A program made the position numbers and the translations under genes. Shown in pieces: positions 2,596 through 6,183 of a stretch of DNA of 6,183 nt. The stretch is taken from positions 1 to 6,183 of the IMG/VR virus record IMGVR_UViG_2548876865_000003; one strand, 5' to 3'. The notes beneath the pieces are model-generated. The model was not told the origin of the DNA, did not search any database, and worked only from the letters and a program-made list of their open reading frames with translations. The stretch's first letter is position 1. Each line of letters starts with the position of its first letter. Origin of the DNA: a virus (lineage: Duplodnaviria; Heunggongvirae; Uroviricota; Caudoviricetes).

Positions 2596-2921
2596 AAACA
2601 TTTCGCTGGAAAGTGAAGCCGGATATGGAGGTGAACTCGCAGCCGTCGGTGCGTGAAGTGCGCTTTGGTGACGGGTATTTGCAGCGGACGGCGGCGGGGC
2701 TGAATGCAGACCTGAAAACCTACAGGGTGACGCTTTCCGTGACCCGGGAGGAGGCCCGGCATCTGGAGGCGTTCCTGGCAGAGCACGGGGGCTGGAAGGC
2801 ATTTCTGTGGACACCGCCTTATGCATACCGGCAGATAAAGGTGACCTGTGCCGGATGGTCCGCGCGGGTCGGGATGTTGCGCGTTGAGTTCAGCGCGGAG
2901 TTTAAGCAGGTGGTGAACTGA
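2592..2921 (+). CDS. M: Minor tail protein M (lambda gpM-like), 109 aa
   Basis: Supplied ORF 2592..2921. ATG overlaps the H stop in an ATGA arrangement (2592-2595), indicating translational coupling. GGAGG lies about 8 nt upstream. Length of 109 aa equals lambda gpM, and the gene sits between H and L. Confidence 0.9.
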   Translation: MKTFRWKVKPDMEVNSQPSVREVRFGDGYLQRTAAGLNADLKTYRVTLSVTREEARHLEAFLAEHGGWKAFLWTPPYAYRQIKVTCAGWSARVGMLRVEFSAEFKQVVN

Positions 2922-3619
2922 TGCAGGATATTCACGAAGAAAGCCTGAAGGAGTCGGTGAAATCAGAGCAGTCACCGCGGGTGGTGCTCTGGGAAATCGA
3001 CCTGACGGTGCAGGGCGGTGAGCGGTATTTTTTCTGTAATGAGCTCAATGAAAAAGGGGAGCCGGTGACCTGGCAGGGGCGGAAGTATGAGGCGTACCCG
3101 ATTGAGGGCAGCGGCTTTGAGATGAACGGGAAGGGCAGCAGTGCCCGCCCGTCGCTGACGGTGTCGAATCTGTTCGGCCTGGTCACCGGGATGGCGGAGG
3201 ATTTGCAGAGCCTGGTGGGTGCCACGGTGGTCCGCCGCCGGGTGTATGCCCGTTTTCTGGATGCGGTGAATTTTGTGGCAGGCAATCCGGAGGCGGACCC
3301 GGAGCAGGAGCTGACGGACCGCTGGGTGGTGGAGCAGATGTCAGCGCTCACAGCCATGACGGCTTCGTTTGTGCTGGCGACACCGACGGAGACGGACGGG
3401 GCGCTGTTTCCCGGTCGCATCATGCTGGCGAACACCTGTATGTGGGATTACCGGGGAGAGGAGTGCGGTTTCACCGGCGGGGCAGTGGCGGATGAGTTCG
3501 ACAACCCCACCACGGATATCCGGAAGGACAGATGCAGTAAATGCATGCGCGGGTGTGAGCTGCGCGGCATGGTGGCTAATTTCGGCGGTTTCCTTTCCAT
3601 CAGTAAACTTTCGCAGTAA
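2921..3619 (+). CDS. L: Tail tip protein L (lambda gpL-like), 232 aa, with a Cys-rich C-terminal region
   Basis: Supplied ORF 2921..3619. Start overlaps the M stop as TGATG. AGGTGG at 2908-2913 lies 7 nt upstream. Length of 232 aa equals lambda gpL. The C-terminal part contains a cysteine cluster (TCMWDYRGEECGF ... DRCSKCMRGC) consistent with the reported Fe-S-binding gpL family. Confidence 0.93.
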   Translation: MQDIHEESLKESVKSEQSPRVVLWEIDLTVQGGERYFFCNELNEKGEPVTWQGRKYEAYPIEGSGFEMNGKGSSARPSLTVSNLFGLVTGMAEDLQSLVGATVVRRRVYARFLDAVNFVAGNPEADPEQELTDRWVVEQMSALTAMTASFVLATPTETDGALFPGRIMLANTCMWDYRGEECGFTGGAVADEFDNPTTDIRKDRCSKCMRGCELRGMVANFGGFLSISKLSQ

Positions 3620-3629
3620 ATCCCGGTTT

Positions 3630-4373
3630 ATGACACAGACTGAATCAGCGATTCTGGCGCATGCCCGGCGGTGTGCGTCAGCGGAGTCGTGCGGCTTCGT
3701 GATAAGCACCCCGGAGGGCGAACGGTACCAGCCCTGTGTGAATGTCTCCGCAGAGCCGGAGGCGTATTTTCGTATTGCACCGGAAGACTGGCTGCAGGCA
3801 CAGATGCAGGGGGAGATTGTGGCGCTGGTCCACAGTCATCCCGGTGGTCTGCCCTGGCTGAGCGAGGCGGACCGGCGGCTGCAGATAAAGAGTGCCCTGC
3901 CCTGGTGGCTGGTCTGCCGGGGAGACATTCACCGGTTCCGCTGTGTGCCACACCTGACGGGACGGCGCTTTGAGCACGGGGTGACGGACTGTTACACGCT
4001 GTTCCGGGATGCTTATCATCTGGCGGGGATAACGCTGCCGGATTTTCACCGCGAGGATGACTGGTGGCGCAACGGCCAGAACCTGTACCTGGACAATATG
4101 GAGGAAACGGGCTTTTACCGGGTGTCCCTGTCCCGTGCACAGGCGGGCGATATCCTGCTGTGCTGTTTTGGCGCATCGGTGCCGAATCATGCCGCCATTT
4201 ACTGCGGCAACGGTGAACTGCTTCACCATATACCGGAACAACTGAGTAAACGGGAGAGGTATTCTGAAAAATGGCAACGACGAACGCATTCTGTCTGGCG
4301 TCACCGCCACTGGTCCGCATCTGCCTTCACGGGGATTTACAACGATTTGGCCGCCGCCTCAGCCTGTATGTGA
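3630..4373 (+). CDS. K: Tail tip assembly protein K (lambda gpK-like), 247 aa, with an N-terminal JAB/MPN (JAMM) domain and a C-terminal NlpC/P60-like domain
   Basis: First ATG (3630) after the L stop (3617-3619), in the frame of supplied ORF 3369..4373. The upstream part of that ORF overlaps L in another frame and is rejected. JAMM motif H-S-H-x7-S-x2-D is encoded at 3831-3872 (HSHPGGLPWLSEAD), with a candidate upstream Glu in AESCGFV. NlpC/P60-like Cys at 3990-3992 (VTDCYTLF) and His at 4188-4190 (PNHAAIY). No clear SD precedes 3630, so the start is somewhat uncertain. Confidence 0.85.
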   Translation: MTQTESAILAHARRCASAESCGFVISTPEGERYQPCVNVSAEPEAYFRIAPEDWLQAQMQGEIVALVHSHPGGLPWLSEADRRLQIKSALPWWLVCRGDIHRFRCVPHLTGRRFEHGVTDCYTLFRDAYHLAGITLPDFHREDDWWRNGQNLYLDNMEETGFYRVSLSRAQAGDILLCCFGASVPNHAAIYCGNGELLHHIPEQLSKRERYSEKWQRRTHSVWRHRHWSASAFTGIYNDLAAASACM

Positions 4374-4951
4374 ACACGGCGGCGGAAGCCATCCGCGCCC
4401 TGTCACTGCAGGTGCCTGGGTTTCGCCGTCAGATGAACGAAGGCTGGTACCAGATACGTATTGCCGGTGAGGATACCGCGCCGGAGGCGGTGTATGCCCG
4501 TCTTCACGAATCGCTGCATGAGGGCGCGGTTATCCACATTGTGCCGCGACTGGCCGGTGCCGGAAAGGGCGGACTGCAGATTGTGCTGGGGGCAGCAGCC
4601 ATTGTGGGCTCTTTCTTCACTGCCGGGGCATCGATGGCGTTATGGGGTTCAGCCCTGGCTGCCGGTGGTTTTTCTGCCACCACGATGCTGTTCTCGCTGG
4701 GTGCCAGCATGATACTGGGTGGCGTGGCCCAGATGCTGGCCCCGAAGGCAAAGACGCCGGAGTACAAAAGCACGGATAACGGCAGACAGAACACGTATTT
4801 TTCCTCACTGGACAACATGATTGCCCAGGGCAACCCGATGCCGGTGCCTTACGGTGAAATGCTGGTTGGTTCACGACGGATATCCCAGGACATCAGCACC
4901 CGTGATGAAGGCGGAGACGGGAAGGTGGTGGTTATCGGGCGGCAGGGGTAA
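4271..4951 (+). CDS. I: Tail tip assembly protein I (lambda gpI-like), 226 aa, with an N-terminal ubiquitin-like (beta-grasp) region and a hydrophobic Gly/Ala-rich C-terminal half
   Basis: Supplied ORF 4271..4951. ATG lies inside the 3' end of K in a different frame, giving a 103-nt overlap, the same size I recall for lambda K/I. The I frame is closed by TGA at 4265-4267 immediately upstream. GGGAGAGG at 4251-4258 is a possible SD at long spacing. Product contains RLAGAGKGG followed by predicted hydrophobic helices. Confidence 0.85.
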   Translation: MATTNAFCLASPPLVRICLHGDLQRFGRRLSLYVNTAAEAIRALSLQVPGFRRQMNEGWYQIRIAGEDTAPEAVYARLHESLHEGAVIHIVPRLAGAGKGGLQIVLGAAAIVGSFFTAGASMALWGSALAAGGFSATTMLFSLGASMILGGVAQMLAPKAKTPEYKSTDNGRQNTYFSSLDNMIAQGNPMPVPYGEMLVGSRRISQDISTRDEGGDGKVVVIGRQG

Positions 4952-4956
4952 AGCAT

Positions 4957-4989
4957 AAAAAAATCCCGCAGAGTTGCGGAGCTGCGGGA
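4957..4989 (-). terminator. Intrinsic-terminator-like hairpin oriented for the minus strand
   Basis: Perfect 8-bp GC-rich inverted repeat TCCCGCAG (4964-4971) / CTGCGGGA (4982-4989) with a 10-nt loop. On the minus strand the stem is followed by seven U (complement of A7 at 4957-4963). On the + strand no U-tract follows (AATAAACG), so it is oriented to stop leftward transcription. Confidence 0.5.
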
Positions 4990-4997
4990 AATAAACG

Positions 4998-5117
4998 ATG
5001 AAGATTAACGTTATGGAGTTATTTTTCAGGCATCAAGAAAGTAACGCTGCGCAATTATCAGCGCCACAGGTAATTTGTGAAAATGTGAGGAAATTCAGAA
5101 ATTTTATTCCGTCATGA
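4998..5117 (+). CDS. Hypothetical small ORF (39 aa) within the I-J insertion; coding status uncertain
   Basis: ATG 4998 to TGA 5115-5117, translating to MKINVMELFFRHQESNAAQLSAPQVICENVRKFRNFIPS. Weak SD-like GGGAA at 4986-4990, which is partly buried in the upstream hairpin stem. The stop lies 2 nt before the + strand terminator hairpin. Below the length cutoff of the supplied ORF track. No recognisable family. Confidence 0.2.
   Translation: MKINVMELFFRHQESNAAQLSAPQVICENVRKFRNFIPS
5054..5081 (-). promoter_or_regulatory. Candidate sigma70-type promoter on the minus strand (TTCACA, 16-nt spacer, GATAAT)
   Basis: Minus-strand reading: -35 TTCACA (complement of 5076-5081), 16-nt spacer, -10 GATAAT (complement of 5054-5059). 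It would start leftward transcription near 5047, running into the minus-oriented terminator at 4989-4957. Found by eye only. Confidence 0.25.
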
Positions 5118-5118
5118 C

Positions 5119-5150
5119 ACAGGCACCTCCGGGGTGCCTGTTGTTTTTGT
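5119..5150 (+). terminator. Rho-independent terminator-like hairpin on the + strand, about 40 nt upstream of the J start
   Basis: 9-bp stem ACAGGCACC (5119-5127) / GGTGCCTGT (5133-5141) with a 5-nt loop TCCGG, followed directly by the T-rich tract TGTTTTTGT (5142-5150). On the minus strand no U-tract follows, so it is + oriented. Confidence 0.6.
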
Positions 5151-5191
5151 GCATAACCAGATTCAGACATCAGGCAGGACAGGGGGACAGA

Positions 5192-6183
5192 GTGGGTAAA
5201 GGCGGCGGCAAGGCGCACACGCCGGTTGAGGCGAGAGATAACCTGAAATCCACGCAGATGATGAGCGTGATTGATGCGATCGGCGAAGGACCCATTGAAG
5301 GTCCGGTTAACGGCCTGCAGAGTATTCTGGTGAACAAAACCCCGCTGACGGACACGGACGGTAACCCCGTGATACACGGTGTGACCGCCGTCTGGCGTGC
5401 CGGGGAGCAGGAGCAGACGCCACCGGAAGGCTTTGAGTCGTCCGGGGCGGAAACTGCGCTGGGCGTGGAGGTGACGAAGGCAAAGCCGGTGACGCGCACC
5501 ATCACGTCAGCGAACATTGACCGTCTGCGGGTGACCTTCGGGGTACAGTCACTGGTGGAGACCACCTCACAGGGTGACCGTAATCCGGCTTCTGTCCGCC
5601 TGCTGATTCAGCTTGAGCGTAACGGACACTGGGTGACGGAGAAGGATATCACCATTAACGGCAAGACCACCTCGCAGTTTCTGGCGTCGGTGATTCTGGA
5701 TAATCTGCCTCCCCGCCCCTTTAACATCCGGATGGTCAGGGAGACGGCGGACAGCACCACGGACCAGCTGCAGAATAAGACGCTGTGGTCGTCATACACC
5801 GAAATCATCGATGTGAAACAGTGCTACCCGAACACGGCCATTGTGGGGCTGCAGGTGGATGCGGAGCAGTTCGGTGGTCAGCAGATGACGGTGAACTACC
5901 ATATCCGCGGTCGCATCATTCAGGTGCCGTCAAACTACGACCCGGAAAAACGCACGTACAGCGGTATCTGGGACGGGAGTCTGAAACCGGCATACAGCAA
6001 TAACCCGGCCTGGTGCCTGTGGGACATGCTGACGCACCCGCGCTACGGGATGGGAAAACGCCTGGGGGCAGCGGATGTGGACAAGTGGGCACTGTATGCC
6101 ATCGGGCAGTACTGCGACCAGAGTGTTCCGGATGGTTTCGGGGGAACAGAGCCGCGGATGACCTTTAATGCGTACCTGTCACA
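5192..6183 (+). CDS. J: Host specificity protein / central tail fibre J (lambda gpJ-like), N-terminal ~330 codons, truncated by the window end
   Basis: Open frame from GTG 5192 to the window end with no stop, which is why it is absent from the supplied track. Translation VGKGGGKAHTPVEARDNLKSTQMMSVIDAIGEGPIEGPV ... NKTLWSSYTEIIDVKQCYPNTA ... WCLWDMLTHPRYGMGKRLGAADVDKWALY ... DQSVPDGFGGTEPR matches the lambda gpJ N-terminal region as I recall it. Purine-rich AGGGGGA at 5181-5187 serves as SD. An in-frame ATG at 5114 is an alternative start. Confidence 0.9.
   Translation, partial: MGKGGGKAHTPVEARDNLKSTQMMSVIDAIGEGPIEGPVNGLQSILVNKTPLTDTDGNPVIHGVTAVWRAGEQEQTPPEGFESSGAETALGVEVTKAKPVTRTITSANIDRLRVTFGVQSLVETTSQGDRNPASVRLLIQLERNGHWVTEKDITINGKTTSQFLASVILDNLPPRPFNIRMVRETADSTTDQLQNKTLWSSYTEIIDVKQCYPNTAIVGLQVDAEQFGGQQMTVNYHIRGRIIQVPSNYDPEKRTYSGIWDGSLKPAYSNNPAWCLWDMLTHPRYGMGKRLGAADVDKWALYAIGQYCDQSVPDGFGGTEPRMTFNAYLS

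What the first reader, a model, noticed from the sequence alone, without database searches (positions are those of the whole stretch)
5119..5150. Strong + strand terminator inside the late tail operon, just before J
A 9-bp GC-rich stem with a 5-nt loop is followed by TGTTTTTGT, 41 nt upstream of the J start codon. J is essential and lies downstream, so late transcription must read through. This is consistent with Q-type antiterminated late transcription in lambdoid phages, and with the terminator belonging to the inserted unit to limit transcription into J in the lysogen. The hairpin also overlaps the alternative upstream ATG (5114) of the J frame.
Basis: partly seen in the sequence, partly recalled or inferred. 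Interest (0 to 1): 0.5.

Follow-up and report, generated by a model that had tools for sequence, protein, structure and literature searches.

The report
Conserved terminator hairpin just before J
A real, well-conserved transcription-terminator hairpin sits in the gap between tail genes I and J of this lambda-like prophage, next to the known small RNA PasB; it is an ordinary kind of signal that phage late transcription is expected to read through.

Summary
A 9-10 bp GC-rich hairpin (5119-5141) followed by TGTTTTTGT (5142-5150) lies on the + strand, 41 nt before the J start (GTG 5192).

It is the best terminator-like site in the window. It also belongs to the most conserved stretch of the 241-nt I-J spacer across 28 distinct spacer variants. 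One stem pair switches C-G to U-A, and most of the wobble pairs seen in the variants fit only + strand RNA.

The "inserted unit" is identified. The spacer carries, on the minus strand, a homolog of the published Hfq-dependent sRNA PasB (EPEC) / EcOnc22-24 (EHEC), with its own promoter, a CRP-like site and its own terminator.

The hairpin is not part of PasB. Recombination breakpoints separate the two modules.

Unrelated hairpin-plus-T-run elements occupy the same place in lambda itself, in an HK97-like phage and in two T1-like phages. A terminator before J is therefore a recurrent feature of this junction rather than a property of the insert.

Most likely mechanism: it stops ordinary RNA polymerase before J in the lysogen, and Q-modified polymerase reads through during lytic growth. 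Termination itself is untested.

This is a new member of a known kind, of low to moderate interest.

The parts
5119..5141 (+). GC-rich stem-loop of the terminator: stem ACAGGCACC / GGTGCCTGT, loop TCCGG
   Evidence: Searches give -16.4 kcal/mol. In 17 distinct variants 98.8% of stem cells are paired, with a C-G to U-A swap at one pair. Most wobble pairs in the variants fit only + strand RNA.
5142..5150 (+). T-run TGTTTTTGT directly after the stem. The predicted RNA 3' ends lie at about 5146-5150.
   Evidence: Mean pairwise identity is 0.89 over 28 spacer variants. On the minus strand no T-run follows the hairpin, so the element is one-directional.
5106..5118 (+). Conserved lead-in (ATTCCGTCATGAC) that travels with the hairpin module. 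It contains ATG 5114.
   Evidence: The module boundary at about 5105/5106 is seen in class B spacers and in the tandem-unit locus L258.
5084..5099 (.). CRP-like palindrome TGTGA-N6-TCAGA (22-mer 5081-5102). It is part of the upstream region of the PasB promoter, not of the terminator.
   Evidence: It is the only match with at most 1 mismatch in the window, against 0.21 expected by chance. The half-sites are invariant; variation occurs only at central and flank positions. The block is duplicated with each sRNA unit in L258. Binding is not tested.
5054..5081 (-). Sigma-70 promoter-like site for PasB: -35 TTCACA, 16-nt spacer, -10 GATAAT
   Evidence: 10 of 12 matches. The equivalent site in class B is TTTTCA-17-TATAAT.
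4957..5047 (-). Homolog of the sRNA PasB (EPEC) / EcOnc22-24 (EHEC). The terminator hairpin is 4964-4989 and the U-run 4957-4963. The 5' end is predicted at about 5047 from the -10 element, or about 5032 by alignment to the published 83-nt RNA.
   Evidence: PMC8550237 Table S6; the E2348/69 locus; alignment; Sakai EcOnc22; fold.
4271..4951 (+). Tail assembly gene I (3' end at 4951)
   Evidence: PHROG tail assembly protein, E 3.6e-79.
5192..6183 (+). 5' part of gene J (central tail fibre / host specificity), GTG start, Shine-Dalgarno sequence GGGGGA at 5182-5187

Best explanation
The element is a Rho-independent (intrinsic) terminator on the sense strand of the late tail operon. It sits at the J-proximal end of the I-J spacer.

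**Mechanism.** RNA made on the + strand folds into the 9-10 bp hairpin. The weak rU-dA hybrid over TGTTTTTGT then lets unmodified RNA polymerase release at about 5146-5150, which is 41 nt before J.

**In the lysogen (inferred).** It stops whatever + strand transcription reaches it before J and the genes beyond. That transcription could be leakage through the tail genes, or divergent initiation from the AT-rich promoter region of PasB.

**In lytic growth (inferred, from the established behaviour of lambdoid Q proteins).** Polymerase modified by Q at PR' ignores the terminator and transcribes J.

**Relation to PasB.** The hairpin is a separate module from the adjacent minus-strand PasB cassette. 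It is a positional analog of the hairpin-plus-T-run elements found before J in lambda, in HK97-like phages and in T1-like phages.

**Shown versus inferred.** Anatomy, conservation, strand-specific structural selection, module boundaries and the positional analogs are shown. Termination, read-through and the biological benefit are inferred.
For: **Anatomy.**

**Only one strand can terminate.** No T-run follows the hairpin on the minus strand.

**Conservation.** Positions 5084-5150 have mean pairwise identity 0.88-0.93 over 28 distinct spacers. The PasB body scores 0.71, the PasB promoter 0.70 and the J leader 0.54. The same hairpin is joined to at least 4 unrelated J leaders and to several PasB variants.

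**Structure under selection.** At one stem pair 7 of 17 variants have C-G, 7 have U-A, 1 has the U.G intermediate and 1 is mispaired. Across the stem, 98.8% of cells pair as + strand RNA against 95.9% as minus strand RNA.

**Context.**
- All 153 hairpin matches found in IMG/VR loci lie in this I-J context.
- The block occurs at 3711 places in 890 of 5426 complete E. coli genomes, always unannotated.
- Unrelated hairpins with T-runs occupy the same place in lambda-type prophages, including one with a 708-nt insert upstream of the hairpin, in mEp234, and in the T1-like phages LF82-19 and vB_KpnS_2811. No sequence similarity links them to the window type.
- Q is annotated in Sp15, which carries the same spacer.
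Against: - No transcript 3' end, reporter assay or in vitro termination data could be consulted. The published EHEC Term-seq tables are not held.
- A G interrupts the T-run near its start, so efficiency could be partial.
- Covariation rests on a single pair among closely related, recombining sequences, and shuffling controls are only weakly informative.
- The high conservation could partly reflect recent spread or recombination between prophages.
- Not all spacer classes have a + strand terminator before J. None was found in the sodC class. Many phages with J-like genes have I and J abutting or overlapping.
- No clear source of + strand transcription in the lysogen has been demonstrated.
Confidence: 0.62

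Rival explanations
1. The hairpin is the terminator of a short + strand RNA of about 58-85 nt. This RNA would be transcribed divergently from the PasB promoter region: either TSS about 5091 from the extended -10 TGtGAAAAT at 5076-5084, or TSS about 5065 from AATTAT at 5053-5058, the mirror of the PasB -10. It would be a second sRNA gene back-to-back with PasB.
For: - The conserved 69-nt block ends in a terminator and has an A/U-rich stretch (AAAUUUUAUU) just before the hairpin, like the 3' module of many sRNAs.
- The window, E2348/69 and class B variants carry TGTGAAAAT.
- Prophage sRNAs of 51-66 nt are known in these strains (PMC4104026; PMC13502914).
Against: - The candidate + promoter is weak: 8 of 12 matches, and the scan did not call it.
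- It is not conserved in the commonest variants (Sakai type GGAAAT; L079 type CAGAAAAT without the TG), whereas the hairpin is.
- Conservation of 5081-5105 is explained by its belonging to the PasB promoter module. It is duplicated with each sRNA unit in L258 and shared with class B.
- The lists of Hfq CRAC peaks in EHEC and of RIL-seq sRNAs in EPEC contain PasB/EcOnc22-24 but no late-sense RNA from this spacer.
- The U tail has only 5 consecutive U.
Confidence: 0.15
2. The hairpin acts mainly at the RNA level in the late mRNA. It would be a barrier to 3'-5' exonucleases that stabilises the H-to-I segment after cleavage, or a protective 5' hairpin for the J segment. This would set the ratio of J to upstream products, with little true termination.
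For: - Selection on the + strand RNA structure.
- A very stable UNCG-type loop (UCCG in most variants, UUCG in mEp234).
- Analogous hairpins occur before J in T1-like phages, which are not known to use Q-type antitermination. There a promoter-like TATAAT or TACAAT follows the hairpin.
Against: - The T-run is conserved as strongly as the stem (0.89). An exonuclease barrier alone would not need it.
- No processing data are available.
- This reading is not exclusive of termination.
Confidence: 0.13
3. The hairpin has no function of its own. It is conserved because it lies in a short homology patch that serves as a recombination joint between tail modules, or because these prophages spread recently. 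The terminator shape is incidental.
For: - The block is flanked on both sides by mosaic, unrelated sequence, the pattern expected at recombination joints.
- The sequences come from closely related E. coli prophages.
- A comparable hairpin arises by chance in about 11% of shuffled windows.
Against: - The compensatory C-G to U-A change, and wobble pairs that mostly fit only the + strand.
- Independent, unrelated hairpin-plus-T-run elements at the same junction in four other phage lineages.
Confidence: 0.07
4. The region codes for protein. J would start at ATG 5114, and the hairpin would lie inside an N-terminal extension.
For: ATG 5114 is in frame with J and no stop codon follows it in this window.
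Against: - Relatives with a one-base-longer loop are out of frame.
- There is no Shine-Dalgarno sequence before 5114, whereas GGGGGA precedes GTG 5192.
- The N-terminus MGKGG... aligns with the start of lambda J.
Confidence: 0.01

Closest known systems
Intrinsic terminators inside Q-antiterminated late operons of lambdoid phages, including the terminators of 'morons' (Juhala et al. 2000, as cited in PMC4104026) and tR' (PMC7547250)
   Same: A hairpin plus U-run on the late-sense strand, lying upstream of essential late genes. Q-modified polymerase is expected to read through it, and ordinary polymerase is expected to stop.
   Different: - It does not end any + strand gene. The neighbouring cargo (PasB) is on the other strand and has its own terminator.
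- It is not next to PR'.
- No transcript that ends here has been described.
The I-J spacer hairpin of phage lambda (NC_001416 15445-15504; GAAACCGCC-TGCG-GGCGGTTTT GTCATTTAT)
   Same: Same junction, same strand, GC-rich stem, 4-nt loop (TCCG in most lambda-type prophages, as in most window-type variants), then a T-run. Inserts sit upstream of it (L030).
   Different: - No detectable sequence similarity.
- The lambda hairpin ends about 20 nt before the J ATG, against 41 nt plus the T-run here.
- It is not annotated in the RefSeq record, and I found no study of it.
PasB (EPEC E2348/69, PMC8550237) / EcOnc22-24 (EHEC Sakai, PMC4104026)
   Same: The same I-J spacer. The window carries a PasB homolog 72 nt away from the hairpin.
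   Different: PasB is on the opposite strand and ends at its own terminator (4957-4989). The hairpin studied here lies upstream of the PasB promoter and is not part of that RNA.
StxS / lambda 6S RNA: sRNA produced by termination at tR' (PMC7547250)
   Same: A precedent that a terminator in the late-sense strand of these prophages can define a functional short RNA in the lysogen.
   Different: StxS has a strong constitutive promoter (PR') and documented Hfq binding. Neither is evident for a + strand RNA here.
Terminator-promoter pairs between the I-like and J-like genes of T1-like phages (LF82-19, vB_KpnS_2811)
   Same: A strong hairpin plus T-run in the gap just before the J-like gene.
   Different: A -10-like element follows the terminator there, so J may start a new transcription unit. 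No such promoter is seen in the window between 5151 and 5191.

Membership tests
Rho-independent (intrinsic) terminator | GC-rich stem of about 5-14 bp with a short loop | tested here: met
   9-10 pairs, 6 of them G-C, loop of 3-5 nt, -16.4 kcal/mol.
Rho-independent (intrinsic) terminator | U-rich tract immediately 3' of the stem on the transcribed strand | tested here: met
   TGTTTTTGT: 7 of 9 bases are T, with one G near the start of the tract. It is conserved at 0.89. It is absent on the minus strand.
Rho-independent (intrinsic) terminator | Structure maintained in relatives on the transcribed strand | tested here: met
   98.8% of stem cells are paired. One pair shows C-G to U-A. Seven wobble cells are valid only on the + strand against two valid only on the minus strand. 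The evidence is modest: one covarying pair among related sequences.
Rho-independent (intrinsic) terminator | RNA 3' ends or termination activity at the site | not testable with these tools
   The Term-seq data for strain Sakai exist (GSE143631, named in PMC7547250), but no tables are held.
Terminator read through by Q antitermination | Q gene and PR'/tR' upstream in the same phage; read-through only with Q | not testable with these tools
   The window holds tail genes only. Sp15, a relative with the same spacer, has an annotated antiterminator Q. Read-through itself needs an experiment.
Moron cassette (own promoter and terminator inserted between genes that are close together elsewhere) | The hairpin is part of the same inserted unit as PasB | tested here: inconclusive
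   The hairpin always co-occurs with the PasB block in class A spacers. However, the module boundary lies at about 5105/5106, and lambda, without PasB, has its own hairpin at this place.
PasB / EcOnc22-24 sRNA | The element lies within the sRNA transcript | tested here: not met
   PasB maps to 4957 to about 5047 on the minus strand. The hairpin lies 72 nt beyond the predicted PasB start, and its T-run is on the other strand.
Hfq-dependent sRNA gene on the + strand | Conserved promoter, terminator with a long U tail, and a reported Hfq-bound transcript | tested here: inconclusive
   The promoter is weak and not conserved. The U tail has 5 consecutive U. The EHEC CRAC list and the EPEC RIL-seq list report no late-sense RNA from this spacer, but those lists are not exhaustive.

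The most novel reading that the evidence does not exclude
The hairpin is the 3' end of an undescribed short + strand RNA, transcribed back-to-back with PasB from an overlapping promoter pair. The invariant CRP-like site lies over its start, so the two sRNAs would be switched in opposite directions by carbon source.

More broadly, a terminator placed just before J may be a convergently evolved control point that sets J (host-range module) expression in enterobacterial siphophages, whether or not they use Q.
Probability: 0.15. Interest if true: 0.5.

Novelty: new member of a known kind. Interest (0 to 1): 0.28.

Why it matters
**What changes if termination is confirmed.** The element would mark where non-antiterminated transcription stops inside the tail operon of the very common EHEC/EPEC lambdoid prophages. 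It occurs in 890 of 5426 complete E. coli genomes, at up to 10 copies per genome.

**Consequences.**
- It would define the right-hand border of the PasB sRNA locus.
- It matters for annotating these prophages, for designing clean PasB deletions, and for reading RNA-seq over J and the cargo genes beyond it.
- The recurrence of unrelated terminators at the same I-J junction, in lambda itself too, gives a small, directly testable question about how J expression is set.

**What does not change.** It does not alter any current concept. Terminators inside antiterminated phage operons are textbook.

Tried and rejected
- **Rfam.** A scan of 4700-5500 at E up to 1 gave only two chance-level hits (a miRNA model on the hairpin, anti-hemB on the PasB terminator). 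No curated family covers either element.
- **HnrS.** I suspected the multicopy 66-nt prophage sRNA HnrS (EcOnc10-12). It was rejected because it lies between Rz and the terminase gene and has a different sequence.
- **AgvB/AsxR.** These anti-sRNAs lie at the moron site downstream of PR', not here.
- **EcOnc15.** It maps near stx1 and Q, not to this spacer.
- **My recollection of lambda.** I recalled that I and J abut in lambda. This was wrong: there is a 60-nt spacer with a hairpin.
- **A first regex.** My first pattern for extracting spacers found nothing and was replaced by tblastn anchors.
- **Published end-mapping and small-gene data.** No Term-seq tables are held for the PNAS paper. The RIBOseq paper on strain Sakai has no entry for this spacer. 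Searches for literature on terminators within the lambda tail operon gave nothing relevant.
- **Homology with other I-J hairpins.** An nhmmer profile of the hairpin module against lambda-type, HK97-like and T1-like spacers found no similarity. They are analogs, not detectable homologs.
- **A promoter for J after the terminator.** None is convincing in 5151-5191, and that stretch is not conserved.
- **The 39-codon + strand ORF 4998-5117.** It ends just before the hairpin but is not conserved; the ATG is lost or the frame closed in most variants. The terminator therefore does not serve a conserved + strand gene.

Full report
**What is in the window.**
The 6183-nt window is the distal part of a lambda-like tail operon on the + strand.
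- The tape-measure gene H runs 22-2595, M runs 2592-2921, and L runs 2921-3619.
- K ends at 4373 and I runs 4271-4951.
- After a 240-nt non-coding spacer (4952-5191) comes the start of J at GTG 5192.
- All other gene junctions abut or overlap, so the I-J spacer is the only gap.
- The closest complete E. coli genomes are 92.9% identical over the whole window. The spacer alone is at most 90% identical to any of them.

The stem ACAGGCACC (5119-5127) pairs with GGTGCCTGT (5133-5141) around the loop TCCGG. TGTTTTTGT follows at 5142-5150, and 41 nt later J starts.
- It is the top-ranked terminator-like site in the window. The hairpin folds at -16.4 kcal/mol, and its 61-nt context gives z = -2.8 against shuffles.
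- On the minus strand the same hairpin is followed by GTCATGACGG, not a T-run. It can therefore only terminate + strand transcription.
- A hairpin of this quality appears 0.15 times per shuffled window. Sequence alone would be weak evidence; the comparative data carry the argument.

**What the 'inserted unit' is.**
The spacer contains a minus-strand promoter-like site (-35 TTCACA at 5081-5076, -10 GATAAT at 5059-5054). It also contains a minus-strand terminator (hairpin 4964-4989, then seven U).

This unit is a homolog of PasB, an 83-nt Hfq-dependent sRNA of EPEC E2348/69.
- PasB maps to NC_011601 1466343-1466261 on the minus strand, between E2348C_1436 and E2348C_1437 (PMC8550237 Table S6).
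- In that genome those two genes are the tail assembly protein I and gpJ, so PasB lies exactly in the I-J spacer.
- That spacer aligns with the window's throughout.

In EHEC Sakai the Hfq-binding peaks EcOnc22, 23 and 24 fall in the same spacers, antisense to the late operon.
- They give an RNA of about 85 nt that is destabilised without Hfq (PMC4104026 Table S2).
- The mapping requires shifting the published NC_002695.1 coordinates by about 128 nt to NC_002695.2. I calibrated this shift on HnrS/EcOnc10.
- The equivalence of EcOnc22-24 with PasB is my inference; the EPEC table lists no EHEC homolog for PasB.

[quoted passage not shown] The hairpin under study is not part of PasB. It lies 72 nt beyond the predicted PasB start, on the far side of the PasB promoter, and its T-run is on the other strand.

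**Comparative anatomy of the spacer.**
I sampled regions upstream of J without reference to the spacer itself, using the J N-terminus as the query. Among phages whose J is at least 95% identical, three spacer classes appear.
- **Class A (234-260 nt, 28 distinct sequences including the window):** PasB, a conserved block, the hairpin, then a variable J leader.
- **Class B (336-344 nt; for example E. albertii contigs):** shares PasB and the block up to window position about 5105. It then carries different DNA with a different, bidirectional-looking hairpin and a second minus-strand promoter-like site.
- **Class C (about 850 nt):** carries a minus-strand Cu/Zn superoxide dismutase gene (Pfam Sod_Cu, E 3.9e-32). 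No + strand terminator was found before J.

The I-J junction is therefore a hot spot for inserted cargo.

Within class A, mean pairwise identity by segment is as follows.

| Segment | Mean pairwise identity |
|---|---|
| 5084-5118 | 0.93 |
| Hairpin | 0.88 |
| T-run | 0.89 |
| PasB body | 0.71 |
| PasB promoter | 0.70 |
| J leader | 0.54 |

The J leader exists in at least four unrelated versions.

**Two modules, not one.**
Two observations place the boundary.
- In locus L258 two minus-strand sRNA units lie in tandem. Each is preceded by its own copy of the block GCCGGAArTGTGAAGAATTTCAGAAATTTT, and the hairpin follows only the J-proximal copy.
- The class B breakpoint falls at the same point.

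Together these place 5081-5105 with the sRNA promoter and 5106-5150 as a separate hairpin module. The promoter-side block contains a CRP-like palindrome, TGTGA-N6-TCAGA (5084-5099).
- It is the only match with at most one mismatch in the window, against 0.21 expected.
- Its half-sites are invariant, and variation is confined to the central and flanking positions.
- This fits a protein-binding site for PasB regulation. It is a side observation and is not tested.

**The hairpin is selected as + strand RNA.**
- In 17 distinct variants 98.8% of stem cells are paired.
- One pair is C-G in 7 variants, U-A in 7, the U.G intermediate in 1 and mispaired in 1. Two other pairs show U.G or G.U wobbles.
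- Read as minus-strand RNA, those wobbles become A-C mismatches. Pairing is 98.8% on the + strand against 95.9% on the minus strand.
- This evidence is modest, because it rests on one covarying pair among related and recombining sequences. It is nevertheless consistent.
- The loop varies in length by one base, which throws ATG 5114 out of frame with J in most relatives. The hairpin region is therefore not coding.
- All 153 matches to the hairpin in the fetched IMG/VR loci are in this same context.
- The block is present at 3711 unannotated places in 890 of 5426 complete E. coli genomes.

**A terminator before J is a recurrent feature.**
- Contrary to my recollection, lambda has a 60-nt I-J spacer (I ends at 15444, J starts at 15505). 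It contains GAAACCGCC-TGCG-GGCGGTTTT followed by GTCATTTAT, and nothing is annotated there.
- The same hairpin, mostly with a TCCG loop, is kept in lambda-type prophages of E. coli, Shigella and Citrobacter. One of these has a 708-nt insert that sits upstream of the hairpin.
- The HK97-like phage mEp234 has GGCCACC-TTCG-GGTGGC followed by TTTTTTAT just before J.
- The T1-like phages LF82-19 and vB_KpnS_2811 have strong hairpins with T-runs there, each followed by a -10-like element.
- A profile of the window-type module finds none of these. They are positional analogs, not detectable homologs.
- The feature is not universal. In mEp554 and in phages of Pseudomonas, Vibrio, Moraxella, Burkholderia and Dhillonvirus, I and J abut or overlap.

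**Mechanism.**
The best-supported reading is a conventional intrinsic terminator.
- Unmodified RNA polymerase moving rightward stops at about 5146-5150.
- In the lysogen this keeps leakage through the tail genes, or divergent initiation from the PasB promoter region, out of J and the genes beyond.
- After induction, polymerase modified by Q reads through. Q is annotated in Sp15, which has the same spacer.
- The read-through step follows from established knowledge of lambdoid Q proteins, not from anything computed here.
- I put 0.62 on this reading.

**Rivals.**
- **A short + strand sRNA ending at the hairpin (0.15).** The candidate promoters are weak and not conserved. Neither the EHEC CRAC list nor the EPEC RIL-seq list reports a late-sense RNA here.
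- **A purely post-transcriptional stability element of the late mRNA (0.13).** The conserved T-run argues for termination, although the two roles can coexist.
- **A conserved recombination joint without function (0.07).** The covariation and the independent analogs argue against this.
- **Coding sequence (0.01).**

**Verdict.**
Three points need changing.
- The insert is the known sRNA PasB.
- The terminator is a separate module, and its presence before J is shared with lambda and other phages. It is better described as belonging to the I-J junction than to the insert.
- The upstream ATG is an accident of this variant.

This is a new, unannotated member of a well-known kind of element. Interest is low to moderate.

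Noticed in passing
window 4957-5047, minus strand: Homolog of the sRNA PasB (EPEC) with its own promoter and terminator. The Sakai Hfq peaks EcOnc22/23/24 lie in the same I-J spacers and look like the EHEC homologs, yet the EPEC paper's table lists no EHEC homolog for PasB.
   Followed up: yes
window 5081-5102 (core 5084-5099): A CRP-like palindrome TGTGA-N6-TCAGA just upstream of the PasB -35 element. The half-sites are invariant in 28 spacer variants, variation occurs only at non-contact positions, and the block is duplicated with each sRNA unit in L258. PasB was reported to be higher in LB than in DMEM, which would fit catabolite control. The spacing to the predicted start (-44.5) is unusual.
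   Followed up: partly
window 4998-5117, + strand: A 39-codon ORF antisense to PasB that stops just before the hairpin. It has the same length in the Sakai-type spacer, but the start is lost or the frame closed in most other variants, so it is probably not a gene.
   Followed up: partly
window 3742-3765, + strand: A second terminator-like hairpin (9 pairs, then ATTTTCGTAT) inside the K coding region. It is possibly chance; its conservation was not examined.
   Followed up: no
L008 1280-1465; L009; L067; L092 (class B spacers): An alternative I-J spacer shares PasB but then carries about 190 nt of different DNA. This DNA has a bidirectional hairpin (CCCCGGTATC-TGCT-GATACCGGGG) and a further minus-strand promoter-like site, which suggests a second small minus-strand transcription unit.
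   Followed up: partly
L010 213-740 minus strand; also L027, L066, L128, L132: A Cu/Zn superoxide dismutase (sodC) gene is inserted in antisense orientation between I and J. The PasB terminator and body are retained downstream of it.
   Followed up: partly
L258 about 1700-1980: Two minus-strand sRNA-like units lie in tandem in one I-J spacer, each with its own copy of the CRP-like block. The second unit is unrelated to PasB.
   Followed up: no
J leader: window 5160-5175; L082, L261: A 7-nt unit CAGACAT is present in 1 to 3 tandem copies between the terminator and the J ribosome-binding site in different prophages.
   Followed up: no
L285 (lambda NC_001416 15445-15504); L282 413-464; L283 394-470; L289 337-423: Unannotated hairpin-plus-T-run elements lie just before J in lambda, mEp234 and two T1-like phages. 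In the T1-like phages a -10-like TATAAT or TACAAT follows the terminator.
   Followed up: partly
L008, L011-L017, L020, L026 and other genome-contig hits: Lambda or E. coli prophage J sequences appear in assemblies labelled Streptomyces, Neobacillus, Paenibacillus, Shewanella, Bradyrhizobium and others. These are short, low-coverage contigs and look like contamination.
   Followed up: no
L257, L265: A more divergent PasB-like unit has the terminator stem CCCACAG/CTGTGGG instead of CCCGCAG/CTGCGGG, a compensatory change. It is joined to an unchanged + strand hairpin.
   Followed up: no
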